From: a virus
Length of the DNA: 18,159 bases
Reading direction: 5' to 3' (one strand)
Virus genome (UHGV): UHGV-0178165
Shown here: positions 1-6,000 of the stretch, one piece after another
Numbering within the stretch: position 1 is the first letter of the stretch
Layout of the letters: each line of letters opens with the position of its first letter
Position numbers: made by a program

Positions 1-3000
1 TCTTTCGTCATAAAATTTAAATGCAGAGTCAATTTCCAGCACTGGCGGCATCTTGCAGCACGTCGCCTGACGGGTAAGGCGCTTAAGGAGAATACCAGGC
101 TTCAGCTCAAGTGACGCGATGCACGTCTTCACACCCTGACGCATTGCCTCAAGTGCCATATGCCCGACAACCTCGGTGTTATGCGTCGCCACATATCCCC
201 TGGTTACATACAGGTGGCGAGGGTGATCGACCATAATACACAAGCATTCTGCATTGCCTATTTTTTCAACATTCCTGACGAATACCCCACAGCCCTCGAA
301 TCGATGCGCAGTTAATCTGCCATTGAGTCGTGGTGAACGGATGGCATCCCTGATTTCTCTTGTCAGTCTGATTCTTGCCTCGTATGAATCCATCCCATGC
401 CGCTTATCGCCCTTGTATGTGTATGTCACGCCAGTTTTAACTCGCGTCCGGCATGACCCGCCGAGTGAGTTAACCAGTTGAACAACCCCATTGAGCAGTT
501 CTTCACTTGCTGAGGAAAAAACAAGCGTTCCATCCTTCTCGACATACCCATCCGTTTCAAGCAGACCACACAGCATGCCTATACGCGTTGATTTATTTGC
601 AGAAAAAAACACACGAGGGATGAATTTGTTTTTTGCTGTGCACCCCATTAGTCCATAACCTCGCAGGGTCTCCATGAGTGGATTTACCTGACCACGCGCC
701 GTTGATATCAGCCAGTCCTTACCATCTCCAGAGAAGTTGTAATCAGGCAGTTCAGCCTTCATACGCTCGATCATGTATGGCTCGACGTTTGAAAACTTCA
801 CGCTCCCATTGCTAAGACTACCATCCCCGAGAAGGGAGCCGATAACCCATGCTAATGGCTCTGAGTGGTCGCCAAAGTCACCAGTTATTTCAGGAATCCT
901 AACGCCATTTTTGTGCCTCTTCGTTTCACTCAACCGTTTCAGCTCGAAGGTGTCTATCACGCGGCGCTTCTCGCCTTTCGTGAATCCACGACTAGTGACC
1001 TCCCATAGGTGATCGCCTGCGCAATCAACATAACGACCATCTTCAAATGTGACTCGGTAAACATCTCTAACACCCTGCGGGAATATCCCGGTGACAGTTG
1101 ACGGATTGCCGTCAACTGACGCCACCTGATCGCCAATTTTTACATCCCCGTGAGTAGTCCATTCACCATTAGCGAGCAGAATTGGTTCATCAAGTGGACA
1201 GGCTTTTCCGTGACCGTTCACACCATTGACCAGCGTCAACTCGGCCTCACGGAACTGGAATTTATCTGCCAGAGATTCCCACGGTGGATTAAACAGATAC
1301 TGCTGCTTGCCGTAGAAAGCGTTGATAGTGTCCTGGTAAAACTCTCGCGCGCTGTAGAGTTCTTCAGGATCGAAGTAGGATGCCGTGCCGATGTACTGCC
1401 AGATTTCATCCTCGGTAACACCGTTCATCAGGCATTCGTTGATGTCTTTGTACGGCAGAGTAACAAGACGGCAACGATGTTCACCGAGTCGGCTTGCGAT
1501 TTCCCTTGCGGCTTCACGACCAACATCATCAACGTCCATCGAGATGAATATTTCCTCAAACCTGTCGAGGTTGTGATACTCAAACTCAATCCACTGTTGC
1601 TTAGCGCCTTTCCCGCCACCAAACGGCACGGATAACGCCGAGATGCCGTATTGCGCATAGCTCATACAATCAATTTCGCCTTCGCAAAGTACAACCGCCC
1701 TCACGCCAGCGTCCAGAGCCTGCCATCCGAACAGACAAGGTTCGCAATCACCTTCTGCCATAATGACTTTCTTCCCGTCCGGGCGCTCAGTGCTGATTCG
1801 CTTGACCTGCAACAACTCACCATCGCGTTTGTACGGAAGCACCAGTGCATCAAGTTCTCGTTCTCCATCCCACACCTTGCCGCTGACAACCTCGTAGCGC
1901 TTTACGACTTCTGGCGATATGCCACGCGATTGCAGGTACTCAAGATGGGATTCTGTTCTGGTAACGTAGCGGGCGATTTTCTTGCGGTCAGGTCTGGAGA
2001 ATTTCTTCTCACGTTTGGCATCGAAATGGTGATCGTCATCCTTGATTCCGAGAAATGCTTTCGCTTCCTGCATAGCCTGATGCAGGTTAATTCCACGACA
2101 TGCCATCCACAAATCAAGCATGTCACCGCCGTCTCCCTCAGCGAAATCAGCCCATTTTTTCTTGCCGCTAAGGTTGACCTTAAGGCTGTTTCCCTTGTCA
2201 CCGTTGACGTTACCGGCAACCCACTCATGCCCCTCTTTCTTGCCGTTTGGCAACAGGTGCGGAGCCACCCTGTCAACCTGCGCCCAAAGCAGGTCGCTGA
2301 GTTCACTTGGCCTCATGATTCCCTCAGATTGAGATTTTTAAACCAGAAATCGACAAACGAAATACTTAACCAGCCGTGGTTATAACCAGCGACCAGTAGC
2401 GATTTGATTTTTGATTTCATGGTTCACCTGTCGAAAAACACGTAGCCATTTTTCGATACGGTGATTGCGGATGATGGTTTGGATTGTGGTTGAATAGTTT
2501 CTGGCTTCTCGTCGTTCCAGCGTTGACCGTTCAGGTAGCTCGATGGTAACAACCTGTCGAATCCGAACTGCTTACCACTCCTGCATGCGATGTCTTCTGC
2601 CAGCATCGTGGCAAACTCGCTTGCCGTACCCCTTGTAGTTTTACGCCATTCCCTGAACTGTGTTCTGAATGCTGAAGCTGCGTTTTTCTTCCCGGCTTTC
2701 CGCATGCCTGCACACCAGAATATTTCCTCGAATGCCTTGTCGGTTTCTTCGTGACGGTCAGGAGTTTTTTCACACTCTGTTCGGACATGTTCGAACATAA
2801 TGTTTTTAGGTTCATTGACTGGTTCAAAAGAGTGACTGGTTCTGGGTGCAGCTCCTGCACCACCCCCTAGTGAATCTCCTGCACCAGGGTGGTGAATCTC
2901 CTGCACTACCCCTAGTGAATCTCCTGCACCCCCAAGCCGAAGAATATAGATATTACTTGAGTTGCCTTTTTCACCTTTTCGGGTGACTTTTTTTAGCAAG

Positions 3001-6000
3001 CCAGCCTCACAAAGAGCCTCAATATGGTTAATCACGGAGCGTTTGCTAATCTCGCACTGGTCAGCGATATGCTGATATGAAGGCCAGCATTCGCCATTGT
3101 CATTGGCGTTATCGGCAAGTTTAAGCAGAACCAGTTTTCTGAGCGGGTTTCCAACTTTGGCTCCCATTGCCTTCACCATCAGAATCATACTCATTTTTTC
3201 ACCTCCAATTGGTTGTGTTTGTTAATGCTTATTTAAGCATCAGGCGAGCAAACTTCGGCTGGTTACTTCCTGGCTCCAAATTCAAAACCCCAGTCTTTTC
3301 CAGTGCTAAAATGTGACCAATTACTGTCGATCTGCTAATATCGCACTGATAAGCGAGATCTTGATATGAAAACCAGCATTCGCCATTGTCATTGGCGTTA
3401 TCGGCAAGTTTAAGCAGAATCAGTTTTCTTCGCGGGTTCCCAACCTTAGTTCTCATTGCTTTCTCAATCAGAATCATACTCATTGTGTCTTCTCCTGTAA
3501 TTTGTGCTTTCTATTCATGACAGCCAATCATCTTTGCCAGACCGCGCTGGGTAAGCGTTGACAGGTTGATGAGTAAATCAGTTTCTGCGCGATCAATTTC
3601 TCGCTGTGTTGGCTTGCTGTAACTTGCTTGTGTCATTTGTTAATTCACCAATAGTGAATAGTTAGTTGAAAGGTATGCGTGGAAACGCATATAGCCTTAG
3701 TTGGTCAGATATCTTGGAACTCGCTTTTCAGCGACGTAGGACGAATGTCCGTTGTTACAAAGAGCAGTCCCGCTTATTAAGCGGCTTTGTGTTCCGGCGG
3801 GAACACGTCATCAAGACTTACATTTGCGCCTAACTTGTTCAGGTAAGCAACGAGAGCACGGCATGTTTTAAGATCTGGCATGCGACGACCACTTTCCCAA
3901 TGACCGACAGCCGACTGTGTGCATCCAACTGCCTTAGCAAGTATTGTTTGACTGATGCTCACTGACTTTCGATATTTCTTAAGGTTGTTCATATTTCCTT
4001 CCCAACATTGGTAACCACGCTATTATAGTACATCTAGTGCGTTTTTAATGCAAGCAAAAATACCACACTCCAAATCCTGGTGAACCAACCCCAAACCTCC
4101 TGAATCGCATTCTGACGCAATATTTACGCCCACACGTACATTTTAATGTCTGACAGTTGTTTATCTCTCTACAGCGCTTCCTATGGCGTTTAAACGCCAT
4201 TGACGTAACTAATGGTTGCCGAGACCGGCTTTCCGCATGCCTGCACACCAGAATATTTCCTCGAATGCCTTGTCGGTTTCTTCGTGACGGTCAGGAGTTT
4301 TTTCACACTCTGTTCGGACATGTTCGAACATAATGTTTTTAGGTTCATTGACTGGTTCAAAAGAGTGACTGGTTCTGGGTGCAGCTCCTGCACCACCCCC
4401 TAGTGAATCTCCTGCACCACCCTAGTGAATCTCCTGCACCACCCTGGTGAATCTCCTGCACCACCCTGGTGAATCTCCTGCACCACGGGCCAGCTTCTTG
4501 ACGGGCTACAGGGTTTAGGGATTTCACCACTTTTGGTGAAAACTTGGCGCCAACTTTCTTTCCCAAAATATAAATCAATAAAATACATAGAGTTATAAAA
4601 AACTAACCACATTTAGAGTGTTTGTGTTGACTTAATCAACTACGTCCCGTACTATTTAGTCATCAGCAGGAAGCTGGAAGCCAAACGGAACAGACTGGCA
4701 GGCTCTTTAAACAACGTCGAACACTCGACTACGTGGCTGAAAAGCCAGATCACCCAACCACATAAGCTGTGGGATGCAATGCCGAAGCAACCGTCTCAGG
4801 AGGGGCTTCGAGATTGCATCGCCAAAGTTTATTCGGGAGGAATCTATGTCCAGAAAAACAGAATTTAAAGGAACCGCAGCTTCTCGCCGTAGAGCTCGTC
4901 GTGCAAATCTGCAAAGTCAGGAGGCGATCAGCTCCGACAAGCTACACAGGCCAACCCCTTCACGAGTGGTCTTGCAATGCAAGCGCAAACCAGCAATGAG
5001 AGCAGAAGTGATAACTCTGACAACGTTGACCAGAAAATATGAAGGTTCAACTTGTCTTCCAAACGTAGCTCTTTACGCGGCAGGCTACCGGAAATCAAAA
5101 CAACTGACAGCGAGGTAAGTGATGAATCAGACATACATTCCATCATGCTTGAGAAATCTGCCAAAGCAGAAAGCAAAGCCCCGCAAGCAAGCCATAAAGG
5201 ACGCTAAGGCAGAGGTTATTGATCAAGCAATACAATTGCTCAGGGAGGAGTTAAGAAGTGGCAAGCTCGAAGGAATGATGATGCCCTATCAGCGCGGATA
5301 TCTTTCGGCGATTAGTAAGTTGGAAGTATTGAAGAGTGAATTATGAACTATCTGGAATTTCCGGATGGTTCATTGTTTTGGCAGCAAACCACTTGTTTGA
5401 GGACTGATACATGAGAGTAAAAACTATGGGCGTAAGCCCATTAAGTGGTCGTATTTTTCAAGGAACATTAAACACTGAAAAAGGAATGTGGGTAGGAAAG
5501 AAAGAAGATGTAACCGAACAGGCAGTTAAGGCAGTAGCTGAACACATGATGATAAAAGGCCAGAAATATGCATACGGGACGAAGGATGGCAAATGGCTGA
5601 TAATAAGCCATCAAGTGGTTGATAAATTACCAGAAGATTTTATTGCTGATTAAAATTATTTTGGCATAAATAACAGAATAAACACAGCACTGTGTATTCA
5701 TTCCAACGAGTGAATACACGGAGCAATGTCGCTCGTAACTAAACAGGAGCCGACTTGTTCTGATTGTTGGAAATCTTCTTTGCCCTCCAGTGTGAGGGCA
5801 ATTTTAGCACACCATGCAATATGCCATTGCAGGGTGGCCTGTTGCTGGCTGCCCTTCCGAATCTTTACTTGAACGAATCACCCGTAAATTACGTGACGGA
5901 TGGAAAAGAGTTGAGGTCTTATTATGCGCAATGAAATAGCCATCAATCACCAGATGCTTCGTGCTGCACAGAACAAAGCAGTAATAGCCAGATTTATTGG

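What the first reader, a model, noticed from the sequence alone, without database searches (positions are those of the whole stretch)
2692..4485. About 240-bp direct repeat of initiator-gene sequence with iteron copy-number difference (3 vs 4) bracketing the cro / cII-remnant region
Segments 2692-2930 and 4225-4485 are near-identical through the coding part and differ in iteron number and flank. As direct repeats they bracket cro, pR, nutR, the cII-like fragment and the 5' part of the initiator gene. Homologous recombination between them would delete that block, and iteron slippage suggests ongoing instability. It may also be an assembly collapse or expansion artefact.
Basis: seen in the sequence. 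Interest (0 to 1): 0.55.

Follow-up and report, generated by a model that had tools for sequence, protein, structure and literature searches.

The report
Second origin copy replaces phage repressor
A P22-like phage seen in many metagenomes really does carry a second, non-coding but structurally complete copy of its replication origin where the repressor gene normally sits; it is most likely a recombination scar left by loss of lysogeny that can still bind the initiator, and it is not an assembly error.

Summary
The repeat is real. 2692-2930 (copy A) and 4225-4485 (copy B) share an exact 195-nt block, with 3 vs 4 perfect iterons plus one terminal palindromic iteron each.

- **Copy A** is the normal origin inside an intact O-type initiator gene (2424-3194, minus strand).
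- **Copy B** is non-coding but has every ori element: iterons, GAACCAGTCA repeats and the AT-rich tract. It fills the slot between pR/cro and pL/N where relatives encode the cI repressor.
- **Lifestyle:** there is no cI and no integrase at the usual Lederbergvirus position, and cII is truncated. This looks like a non-temperate Lederbergvirus lineage.
- **Source:** the window is a 4x metagenome contig. At least two other independent assemblies (120x, and 414x closed-circular) traverse both copies with identical unique flanks. Others break exactly at the repeat. An assembly artefact is effectively excluded.
- **Variation:** copy A never varies. Copy B's array varies in unit number and type between haplotypes, consistent with slippage and gene conversion.
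- **Recombination:** crossover between the copies would delete pR, cro and O's DNA-binding domain, which is lethal.
- **Precedent:** among 158 phage records with this ori segment, the 60 listed each hold one copy (159 places in all) and every annotated one lies in the initiator gene.

Best reading: a recombination scar that retains initiator binding. A working second origin or a copy-control site cannot be excluded. Interest is modest.

The parts
1..2316 (-). Toprim primase/helicase gene (5' 772 codons; runs off the window), partner of the O initiator; carries an intein-like insert
   Evidence: tblastn 98% continuous to the L003 orthologue; Toprim_2, Hom_end_hint, LAGLIDADG_3
2424..3194 (-). 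Intact O-type replication initiator gene (256 aa) with N-terminal winged-helix domain
   Evidence: ORF and translation; HTH_36 3.9e-14; 'replication protein O' in matching phage records
2692..2930 (-). Copy A: the normal origin inside the O gene. 3 perfect iterons (2870-2884, 2892-2906, 2915-2929), terminal palindromic iteron (2846-2860), two GAACCAGTCA repeats (2816-2825, 2833-2842), AT-rich tract (~2780-2840), then O linker coding sequence
   Evidence: same anatomy in native origins of 2H10, AsXd-1, PseuP_222
3229..3483 (-). O': 84-aa stand-alone paralogue of the O winged-helix domain, with its own Shine-Dalgarno
   Evidence: D3 repeat 80% nt; HTH_36; 70% aa identity over 67 aa; SD; identical protein on 11 contigs
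3511..3636 (-). Truncated cII (41 aa, N-terminal 37 of 91 profile positions)
   Evidence: Phage_CII 1.8e-11; homology to L001 cII ends at 3509
3637..3776 (-). cro-cII spacer with nutR-like boxB arm (3717-3739)
   Evidence: inverted repeat I5 pairs it with 4729-4751 upstream of N; assignment as nut is inference
3777..3992 (-). cro-like repressor gene (71 aa)
   Evidence: HTH_3 2.2e-12, weak P22_Cro; annotated HTH regulator in relatives
3993..4060 (-). OR/pR region; homology with relatives that have cI ends at 4060
   Evidence: blastn to L001 and phiKp_30; TTGCAT-17-TACTAT read from the sequence
4061..4093 (.). 33-bp orphan filler between OR and s131'
   Evidence: no homologue in fetched loci
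4094..4223 (-). s131': diverged copy (76-80%) of a discrete ~131-bp unit that in other phages sits immediately upstream of the primase/helicase start codon; absent from this phage's own O-primase spacer
4225..4485 (-). Copy B: extragenic, non-coding, complete ori unit. 4 perfect iterons (4403-4417, 4425-4439, 4447-4461, 4469-4483), terminal palindromic iteron (4379-4393), GAACCAGTCA repeats (4349-4358, 4366-4375), AT-rich tract (~4300-4360), 155 nt of O linker sequence with stops in frame
4486..4554 (.). 69-bp orphan filler between copy B and the pL region
   Evidence: no hit in E. coli genomes or phages; no similarity to O N-terminal coding regions above shuffles
4627..4655 (+). pL-like promoter (TTGACT-17-TACTAT) diverging from pR
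   Evidence: region 4555-5200 is 96% identical to the pL-N region of L001
4774..5118 (+). N antiterminator gene
   Evidence: N_peptide 2.4e-32

Best explanation
Copy B is a genuine, heritable, non-coding duplicate of the phage's iteron-type replication origin. It lies between the divergent early promoters pL and pR, in the slot where related P22-like phages encode the cI repressor. It most likely arose as a by-product of rearrangements among replication modules that also removed cI and truncated cII. The shared segment R (AT-rich tract plus O linker) is a conserved junction at which lambdoid O genes exchange their specificity modules, so it is a natural recombination substrate. The outer and inner junctions of copy B are illegitimate joins. 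What follows is inference. The O protein expressed from pR should bind copy B as well as copy A, because the cores are identical. Freed from the reading-frame constraint that fixes copy A, copy B's array drifts by unit slippage and by gene conversion with copy A. A crossover between the 195-nt identical blocks would excise 1533 nt carrying pR, cro, cII', O' and the DNA-binding domain of O, giving dead genomes that selection removes, so the repeat persists. The net effect on the phage is probably small: an extra initiator-binding site, possibly an occasional auxiliary origin.
For: Reality:
- The window equals ENA contig ERZ1034763 NODE_473.
- L006 (MEGAHIT, 40,877 bp, multiplicity 414, flag 3) and L007 (SPAdes-style NODE contig, 120x) traverse both copies with the same flanks at 98.6-99.8% identity.
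- Five short contigs start inside copy B and run through s131' towards copy A. L011 and L012 span the whole loop, with a 119-nt (= k) terminal overlap in R. Every path containing cro therefore needs two R copies.
- L006 was resolvable because its copy B has a 1-nt deletion at 4303.

Complete ori: copy B has 4-5 perfect iterons, the terminal palindromic iteron, the GAACCAGTCA repeats and the AT-rich tract (GC 0.33-0.35). This matches native origins of 2H10, AsXd-1 and PseuP_222. In lambda, two iterons plus the AT-rich tract suffice for unwinding (PMC7466680).

Non-coding: stops in the O frame.

cI slot: L001 and L003 have a LexA-family repressor gene between OR and pL. tblastn finds no cI remnant here.

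No int or xis between tailspike and the early-left genes.

R as a linker: L001, L003, phiKp_30 and L020 have different N-terminal domains and different iterons but share R.

Dynamics: copy A is invariant, while copy B differs by haplotype in number and spacer type. Haplotype 2's array is copy A's array with its first unit triplicated.

Scar context: O' and s131' are further fragments of other replication modules in the same 2 kb.

cI was lost independently, and differently, in phiKp_30 and EC.P3.
Against: - No functional data exist. Binding of O to copy B is inferred from sequence identity only.
- The lineage is young, with about 0.1-0.6% divergence outside the array. Lack of decay in copy B therefore says nothing for or against selection.
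- The arrangement persists in at least three genome variants that differ by whole-gene indels, and the array keeps only perfect cores. Both are also what a selected element would show.
- A multi-step origin (duplication plus at least three deletions or joins) is not parsimonious, and no intermediate was found.
- Haplotype-2 array composition rests on one fully spanning assembly (L007). L009 starts inside the array and could have taken the wrong graph branch.
Confidence: 0.6

Rival explanations
1. Copy B is a working second origin. O assembles on its iterons, the adjacent AT-rich tract melts, and the primase/helicase is loaded. Negative supercoiling behind the divergently transcribing pL and pR would stand in for the read-through transcription that activates lambda ori.
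For: - All cis elements of the native origin are present and identical to copy A.
- Its iteron count (4+1) equals that of native origins of the family, whereas copy A is one short.
- It lies between pL (4627-4655) and pR, about 140-175 bp from each.
- Minimal lambda ori needs only two iterons plus the AT-rich tract (PMC7466680).
- It is retained in all carriers, including three gene-content variants.
Against: - It is not transcribed from pR, as lambda-type origins normally are.
- No precedent: in 158 phage records the segment shows 159 places in all; each of the 60 records listed holds a single place, and every annotated one lies inside the initiator gene.
- No data on firing, and the lineage is too young for conservation to be informative.
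Confidence: 0.2
2. Copy B is a control element. As an extra iteron cluster it titrates O or pairs with copy A (handcuffing or looping across pR-cro-O'), limiting or timing theta initiation. This would resemble incA of P1, incC of F, or the lambda 'inhibition phenotype'.
For: - Iteron clusters of the same specificity flank the promoter and the 5' part of the initiator gene.
- Ectopic lambda ori or iteron DNA in trans blocks lambda replication by competing for O (PMC4488673; PMC3349717).
- Hayes et al. propose that build-up of ori copies silences theta replication.
Against: - Plasmid control clusters lack the unwinding element, whereas copy B has it.
- One extra cluster per genome only doubles the number of sites.
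- It is unclear why a lytic phage would benefit from damping initiation.
- No relative shows such an element.
Confidence: 0.1
3. Assembly artefact: a collapsed or expanded repeat, or a chimeric join, in a low-coverage metagenome contig.
For: The window contig has only about 4x coverage. The repeat (195 nt exact) exceeds common k-mer sizes, and several assemblies break there.
Against: - The same structure and the same unique junctions (x69/iterons, R/s131') appear in independent samples and assemblers at 120x and 414x.
- Both flanks of copy B are sequences found nowhere else in the genome. The inter-repeat unit attaches to R at both ends, so any genome containing cro needs two R copies.
- L006 is a stand-alone looped contig with a private 1-nt difference between the copies.
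Confidence: 0.03
4. Population mixture: the contigs merge a full-length phage with a co-existing deletion variant, or with an excised 1533-bp circle. The two copies would then not be on one molecule at 1:1.
For: Short contigs of 1652 nt have a 119-nt terminal overlap, the signature of a cycle of 1533 nt in the graph. The phage encodes Erf and Abc2 recombination functions.
Against: - A circle or a deletion variant would itself be derived from the two-copy genome.
- Neither would encode a complete O, so neither could replicate alone.
- L006 has no graph neighbours at 414x (flag 3; the meaning of the flag is from my knowledge of MEGAHIT).
Confidence: 0.04

Closest known systems
Lambda-type origin embedded in the O initiator gene (lambda, P22 gene 18, phage L, Stx phages)
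   Same: Tandem ~20-bp iterons followed by an AT-rich tract, bound by an initiator with an N-terminal winged-helix domain whose specificity co-varies with the iterons. Copy A is a standard example. Iteron number varies naturally: 4 vs 6 in lambda vs Stx phages (PMC7466680), and 3 to 10 in this family.
   Different: Copy B is outside any gene, upstream of pR rather than downstream, and is a second copy in the same genome. In 158 phage records carrying the segment there are 159 places in all; each of the 60 records listed holds one place, and every annotated one lies inside the initiator gene.
Auxiliary iteron clusters of iteron plasmids (P1 incA, F incC, R6K) that control copy number by titration or handcuffing
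   Same: A second cluster of same-specificity iterons lies about 1.5 kb from the origin, and the two clusters flank the initiator promoter and its 5' coding part.
   Different: Those clusters lack an unwinding element and have demonstrated control functions. Copy B carries the complete AT-rich/DUE part and nothing is known of its effect. The comparison rests on my knowledge of those plasmids, not on a test here.
Phage P4 bipartite origin (ori plus crr)
   Same: Two separated clusters of initiator-binding repeats in one phage genome, and a Toprim primase/helicase is part of the replication module.
   Different: In P4 both sites are bound by the alpha primase-helicase itself and crr is required. 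Here the initiator is a separate O-type protein and copy B is a duplicate of the whole origin. Requirement is untested.
Ectopic ori-lambda decoys / lambda 'inhibition phenotype' (PMC4488673, PMC3349717)
   Same: Extra copies of the cognate origin compete for O protein.
   Different: Those are multicopy plasmids acting in trans and are deleterious to the phage. Here there is one extra copy in cis, in a lineage that is abundant in several samples.
cI-deleted (clear-plaque or virulent) derivatives of temperate Lederbergviruses, e.g. Klebsiella phage phiKp_30
   Same: P22-like backbone with cro, N and the replication genes but no functional repressor gene between OR and pL.
   Different: phiKp_30 keeps the first ~32 codons of cI and has nothing else in the slot. 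EC.P3 has an unrelated 285-aa ORF. Only this lineage has an origin fragment plus the s131' module there.

Membership tests
Lambda-type iteron origin | Three or more tandem ~20-bp initiator-binding repeats | tested here: met
   Copy A has 3 perfect plus 1 terminal. Copy B has 4 (5 in L007) perfect plus 1 terminal, period 22-24 nt.
Lambda-type iteron origin | AT-rich unwinding tract directly adjoining the iterons | tested here: met
   GC 0.33-0.38 at 2780-2840 and 4300-4360; identical in both copies.
Lambda-type iteron origin | Located within the coding sequence of the cognate initiator | tested here: not met
   Met for copy A (inside 2424-3194). Copy B is extragenic, with stops in the O frame and no N- or C-terminal O coding sequence.
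Lambda-type iteron origin | Lies downstream of pR so that early rightward transcription passes through or near it | tested here: not met
   Copy A is downstream of pR. Copy B lies upstream, between divergent pL and pR.
Lambda-type iteron origin | Bound by the initiator and supports initiation | not testable with these tools
   Needs EMSA or footprinting and replication assays.
Plasmid-type auxiliary iteron control locus (incA/incC-like) | Extra iteron cluster of the origin's specificity outside the origin | tested here: met
   Identical 15-nt cores in both arrays, and none elsewhere in the window.
Plasmid-type auxiliary iteron control locus (incA/incC-like) | Cluster lacks origin function or an unwinding element | tested here: not met
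   Copy B carries the AT-rich tract and the conserved GAACCAGTCA repeats.
Plasmid-type auxiliary iteron control locus (incA/incC-like) | Negative control of initiation by titration or handcuffing | not testable with these tools
   Would need copy-number and looping experiments.
Assembly artefact | Structure confined to one assembly; junctions not reproducible | tested here: not met
   Both copies and both junctions are reproduced in L006 and L007. The R/s131' junction appears in 10 contigs from 10 samples.
Non-temperate derivative of a temperate Lederbergvirus | No cI-type repressor gene in the immunity region | tested here: met
   No ORF and no tblastn remnant in 4040-4640. Relatives have a LexA-family gene there.
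Non-temperate derivative of a temperate Lederbergvirus | No integrase or excisionase | tested here: inconclusive
   None between tailspike and the early-left genes, the usual place. About 5-11 kb of the 40.8-kb genome (head, terminase, lysis) could not be retrieved.
Non-temperate derivative of a temperate Lederbergvirus | Not found as a prophage | tested here: met
   Junction patterns are absent from 185,579 representative genomes, and no E. coli genome covers the region. Exact-match scans only.

The most novel reading that the evidence does not exclude
This would be a natural two-origin lambdoid phage. The extragenic ori copy between the divergent early promoters would be functional and maintained by selection in an obligately lytic lineage. 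It could act as a second, transcription-independent initiation site, or as a cis-acting initiator sink that sets the timing of the theta-to-rolling-circle switch once repressor control is gone.
Probability: 0.2. Interest if true: 0.6.

Novelty: new variant of a known kind. Interest (0 to 1): 0.35.

Why it matters
If copy B is only a scar, it is a well-documented example of how lambdoid replication modules recombine at a conserved linker. It also shows how temperate P22-like phages become lytic in nature: this is the third independent way of losing cI seen here. If copy B is active, it would be a natural test of two old lambda questions. One is whether an O-type origin needs read-through transcription, or only local negative supercoiling. 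The other is whether extra origin copies in cis restrain or boost initiation. Practically, repeats of this kind break short-read phage assemblies, and annotation pipelines may call spurious ORFs across them. A 139-aa ORF was called across copy B in L006.

Tried and rejected
- **cI remnant in 4040-4640:** six-frame translation and tblastn with two cI proteins found none.
- **Homology of the 69-bp and 33-bp fillers:** nothing in E. coli genomes or phages. There was no similarity to six O N-terminal coding regions above shuffled controls, so copy B is not detectably the remnant of a whole O gene.
- **'phiKp_30-like cI-less backbone plus insertion':** rejected. phiKp_30's filler is a truncated cI unrelated to the window's fillers.
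- **Exact junction patterns:** absent from IMG/VR and GTDB representative genomes. The JGI/ENA metagenome scan returned only two contigs already known.
- **Protein searches:** O' and the ORF called across copy B in L006 returned only themselves as full-length matches, so there is no more diverged carrier lineage.
- **Rfam over 2200-5200 at E<=1:** no hit, so no oop-like or other known RNA.
- **100% A/B identity over R as proof of a recent duplication:** weakened, because R is 97-100% conserved in unrelated phages.
- **Fragmented primase/helicase gene (decaying prophage):** rejected. The gene is intact and simply runs off the window.
- **DNA folding of the flanks:** one call failed on a length limit and was not pursued.

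
Full report
**1. Observation**

The repeat is in the sequence as described.
- The repeat finder gives 2692-2911 vs 4225-4444 at 98% identity.
- The alignment of the two regions on the minus strand and a direct comparison show an exact 195-nt block, 2692-2886 = 4225-4419, offset 1533 nt.
- Beyond that block the copies continue as iteron arrays. Perfect 15-nt cores (GTGCAGGAGATTCAC on the minus strand) start at 2870, 2892 and 2915 in copy A, and at 4403, 4425, 4447 and 4469 in copy B.
- Each array ends next to the shared block in one palindromic variant (GTGCAGGAGCTGCAC; 2846 and 4379).
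- No other position in the 18-kb window matches the core with two or fewer mismatches.
- Every other repeat in the window is short and poor, except D3.

**2. What the two copies are**

*Copy A.* It lies inside an intact 256-aa gene on the minus strand (2424-3194). The gene has an N-terminal HTH_36 winged-helix domain. Matching phage records annotate it as replication protein O. The next gene downstream is a Toprim primase/helicase that is intact and simply runs off the window's left end (98% continuous tblastn match).

*Copy B.* It is not a gene. All frames contain stops, and the O reading frame is interrupted inside the array. It begins at the first iteron and ends 155 nt beyond the terminal iteron.

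*Comparison with native origins.* Native origins of the same family occur in E. coli phage 2H10, Aeromonas phage AsXd-1 and Pseudomonas phage PseuP_222. They share a conserved anatomy: about four variable iterons, the terminal palindromic iteron, two or three GAACCAGTCA repeats, then an AT-rich tract. Copy B has all of these. Its AT-rich tract has GC 0.33-0.35. It also has the native-like iteron count, whereas copy A is one iteron short.

For lambda, two iterons plus the AT-rich tract are reported as the minimal unwinding-competent unit, and three iterons suffice for normal growth (PMC7466680). So copy B is a structurally complete ori unit.

**3. Context**

The window is a P22-like (Lederbergvirus) genome segment. 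Its best matches are IME10, Sf101, Sf6, phiKp_30 and the early regions of Stx2a phages.

Read along the minus strand, the order is:
- N (4774-5118, plus strand) and pL (4627-4655)
- a 69-bp orphan stretch
- copy B
- a 130-bp segment, s131'
- a 33-bp orphan stretch
- OR/pR
- cro (3777-3992)
- a nut-like spacer
- a 41-aa cII fragment
- an 84-aa ORF, O'
- O
- the primase/helicase

*The repressor slot.* In relatives the interval between OR and pL holds a LexA-family (cI-type) repressor gene (L001, L003). Homology to those relatives stops at 4060 and resumes at 4555. Nothing in between resembles cI, by six-frame translation or by tblastn. Copy B therefore occupies the repressor slot.

*Other lysogeny functions.* No integrase or excisionase lies between the tailspike gene and the early-left genes, which is where Lederbergviruses keep them. 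cII is truncated. By gene content this lineage is non-temperate. The caveat is that some 5-11 kb of the genome (head, terminase, lysis) could not be retrieved.

*Independent cI losses.* Lederbergviruses are normally temperate with cI, cII and Cro (PMC11990801). Two other sewage isolates lost cI in other ways. phiKp_30 keeps only the first ~32 codons, and EC.P3 has an unrelated 285-aa ORF in the slot. Neither has a second ori copy.

**4. Is it an assembly artefact?**

The window is ENA contig ERZ1034763 NODE_473, at about 4x coverage. That alone would be a worry. However, the exact O' protein occurs on 11 contigs from different samples.

*Assemblies that span both copies.*
- L006 is a MEGAHIT contig of 40,877 bp with multiplicity 414. 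Its flag 3 marks, to my knowledge of MEGAHIT, a stand-alone looped contig, meaning a closed circular assembly.
- L007 is a SPAdes-style NODE contig at 120x.
- Both traverse both copies with the same unique flanks, at 99.8% and 98.6% identity to the window over 2300-5200.

*Assemblies that break at the repeat.*
- L010 (40,813 bp, 295x) and L009 end inside copy B's iterons.
- Five short contigs lie within the inter-repeat unit. L011 and L012 cover it fully: L011 spans window 4343 to 2692, and its first 119 nt (= k) equal its last 119 nt.

This is the graph signature of a true repeat R with a unique segment X attached to R at both ends. Any genome that contains X (cro, pR, the O N-terminus) must contain two R copies.

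L006 could be resolved by a pure de Bruijn assembler because its copy B carries a private 1-nt deletion at 4303, which shortens the exact repeat below k. The junction R/s131' is present in ten contigs. I regard the artefact hypothesis as refuted short of read-level proof.

**5. Variation**

Across all assemblies, copy A's array is invariant, with spacing 23, 22, 24 nt (total 69, in frame). Copy B's array differs:

| Assembly | Copy B array |
|---|---|
| Window | 4 units, mixed CACCAGGG / CACTAGGG spacers |
| L006, L010 | identical CACCAGGG units (4 in L006; L010 ends inside the array after 3) |
| L007 | 5 units that equal copy A's array with its first unit triplicated |

These array types go with two haplotypes, defined by linked SNPs at 4041, 4036, 3914 and 3913.

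It also suggests gene conversion from A to B in one haplotype. The caveat is that only L007 spans that array fully.

The carriers are not one clone. L006, L007 and the window differ by whole-gene indels at window 5805/5806 and 6815, yet share the architecture. Outside the array, divergence is only about 0.1-0.6%, so there is no power to detect purifying selection on copy B.

**6. Origin of the structure (inference)**

O genes of this group are modular. L001, L003, phiKp_30 and L020 have other N-terminal domains with other iterons: GGGGCAGGAGCTGCCC in 3 to 10 copies, or a TGTCACC type. All share the segment from the AT-rich tract onward. R is therefore a conserved linker at which specificity modules are exchanged, and a likely substrate for homologous recombination between different phages.

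The same 2 kb holds two further fragments of other replication modules.
- O' is 70% identical to O's winged helix and has its own Shine-Dalgarno. It is joined to codon ~42 of cII.
- s131' is 76-80% identical to a discrete 131-bp unit that sits just upstream of the primase/helicase start codon in L003 and phiKp_30. That unit is absent from this phage's own O-primase spacer.

The inner junction of copy B (R/s131') skips the 3' 268 nt of O and about 100 bp of spacer. The outer junction abuts 69 bp with no detectable relative.

A tandem or heterologous duplication of the pR-O region, followed by deletions that removed cI and the redundant parts, would account for this. No intermediate was found.

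**7. How it most likely works**

*Shown.* The element is a complete, non-coding ori copy. It has cores identical to the functional origin. It lies between divergent early promoters, and it is present in every carrier.

*Inferred.*
- O binds copy B.
- The array evolves by slippage and conversion.
- A crossover between the 195-nt blocks would remove 1533 nt with pR, cro, cII', O' and the DNA-binding domain of O. Such recombinants are dead, so the repeat persists despite the phage's Erf/Abc2 recombination functions.

My best estimate (0.6) is a near-neutral scar with retained initiator binding.

*Rivals.*
- A working second origin (0.2). The position between pL and pR should be negatively supercoiled during early transcription, which by the twin-domain model could replace read-through activation. 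This is inference from established knowledge.
- A titration or handcuffing control site (0.1). Ectopic ori-lambda copies in trans do compete for O and block lambda (PMC4488673; PMC3349717). However, plasmid control clusters lack an unwinding element.
- Artefact or population mixture (under 0.1 together).

**8. Comparison with what is known**

Origins embedded in initiator genes with variable iteron numbers are textbook for lambda, P22, L and Stx phages. Auxiliary iteron clusters are known from P1, F and R6K plasmids, and a bipartite ori/crr from P4 (my knowledge).

What is unusual here is a second, extragenic, complete ori in a lambdoid or P22-like phage. Among 158 phage records that carry the R segment there are 159 places in all. 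Each of the 60 records listed holds a single place, and every annotated one lies inside the initiator gene. No record in the phage or E. coli collections covers the copy-B region. No more diverged carrier exists in the protein database.

I classify it as a new variant of a known kind. Interest is modest (0.35): it is real and unprecedented in the collections searched, but most likely a by-product of lysogeny loss with no demonstrated function.

Noticed in passing
window 3229-3483 (-): O': an 84-aa stand-alone paralogue of the O winged-helix DNA-binding domain (70% aa identity over 67 aa). It has its own GGAG Shine-Dalgarno, is fused in place of the 3' half of cII, and is identical on 11 contigs. 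A DNA-binding-domain-only initiator fragment could act as a competitor at iterons of another specificity; this is untested.
   Followed up: partly
window 4094-4223: s131': a discrete ~131-bp insertion/deletion unit containing the perfect 18-bp palindrome ATGGCGTTTAAACGCCAT. In L003 and phiKp_30 it sits immediately upstream of the primase/helicase start codon. Here it is missing from that place and is found next to copy B instead. Its nature is unknown (regulatory site or small mobile unit?).
   Followed up: partly
window 1-2316 (-), residues ~373-700 of the protein: The Toprim primase/helicase carries an intein-like insertion (Hom_end_hint, LAGLIDADG_3) of about 330 aa. The insertion is absent from the 627-aa orthologue in L001.
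   Followed up: partly
window 2809-2867 and 4342-4400: The 59 nt spanning the terminal iteron and the GAACCAGTCA repeats are 93-97% identical in phages of Pseudomonas (PseuP_222), Aeromonas (AsXd-1) and E. coli (2H10, SfV, Stx2c phages). The search summary also lists 62 Vibrio phage records among the matches, but I did not examine which part of the query they match. This is unusually strong nucleotide conservation across host genera, suggesting a host-factor or helicase-loading site.
   Followed up: partly
window 4061-4620; L005 (phiKp_30) 979-1143; L002 (EC.P3) 2422-3279: Three Lederbergviruses from sewage or metagenomes lost the cI repressor in three different ways. This lineage has an ori fragment in the slot, phiKp_30 has an internal cI deletion, and EC.P3 has an unrelated 285-aa ORF. 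This lineage also lacks int/xis next to the tailspike gene.
   Followed up: partly
window 5805/5806 and 6815; L006 7227-7681 and 5697-6216; L007 1082-2140: Carriers of the same immunity/replication region differ by whole-gene indels in the early-left operon (cIII/DUF2528, a 322-aa protein, and an Ant-type gene). The window variant lacks cIII.
   Followed up: partly
window 3717-3739 and 4729-4751: An inverted repeat (87% complementary) containing GCTGAAAAGC-type hairpins downstream of cro and upstream of N. This is consistent with nutR and nutL boxB elements.
   Followed up: no
window 6058-6899 and 8166-8831 (+): Three anti-repressor-type genes (Ant, ORF6N, pRha families) lie in the early-left operon of a phage that has no repressor of its own. 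They possibly act against repressors of resident prophages.
   Followed up: no
L006 8875-9294: Gene callers predicted a 139-aa ORF across copy B in one assembly, because all its iteron spacers lack the TAG codon. It has no homologue beyond the iteron-encoded part and is almost certainly spurious.
   Followed up: yes
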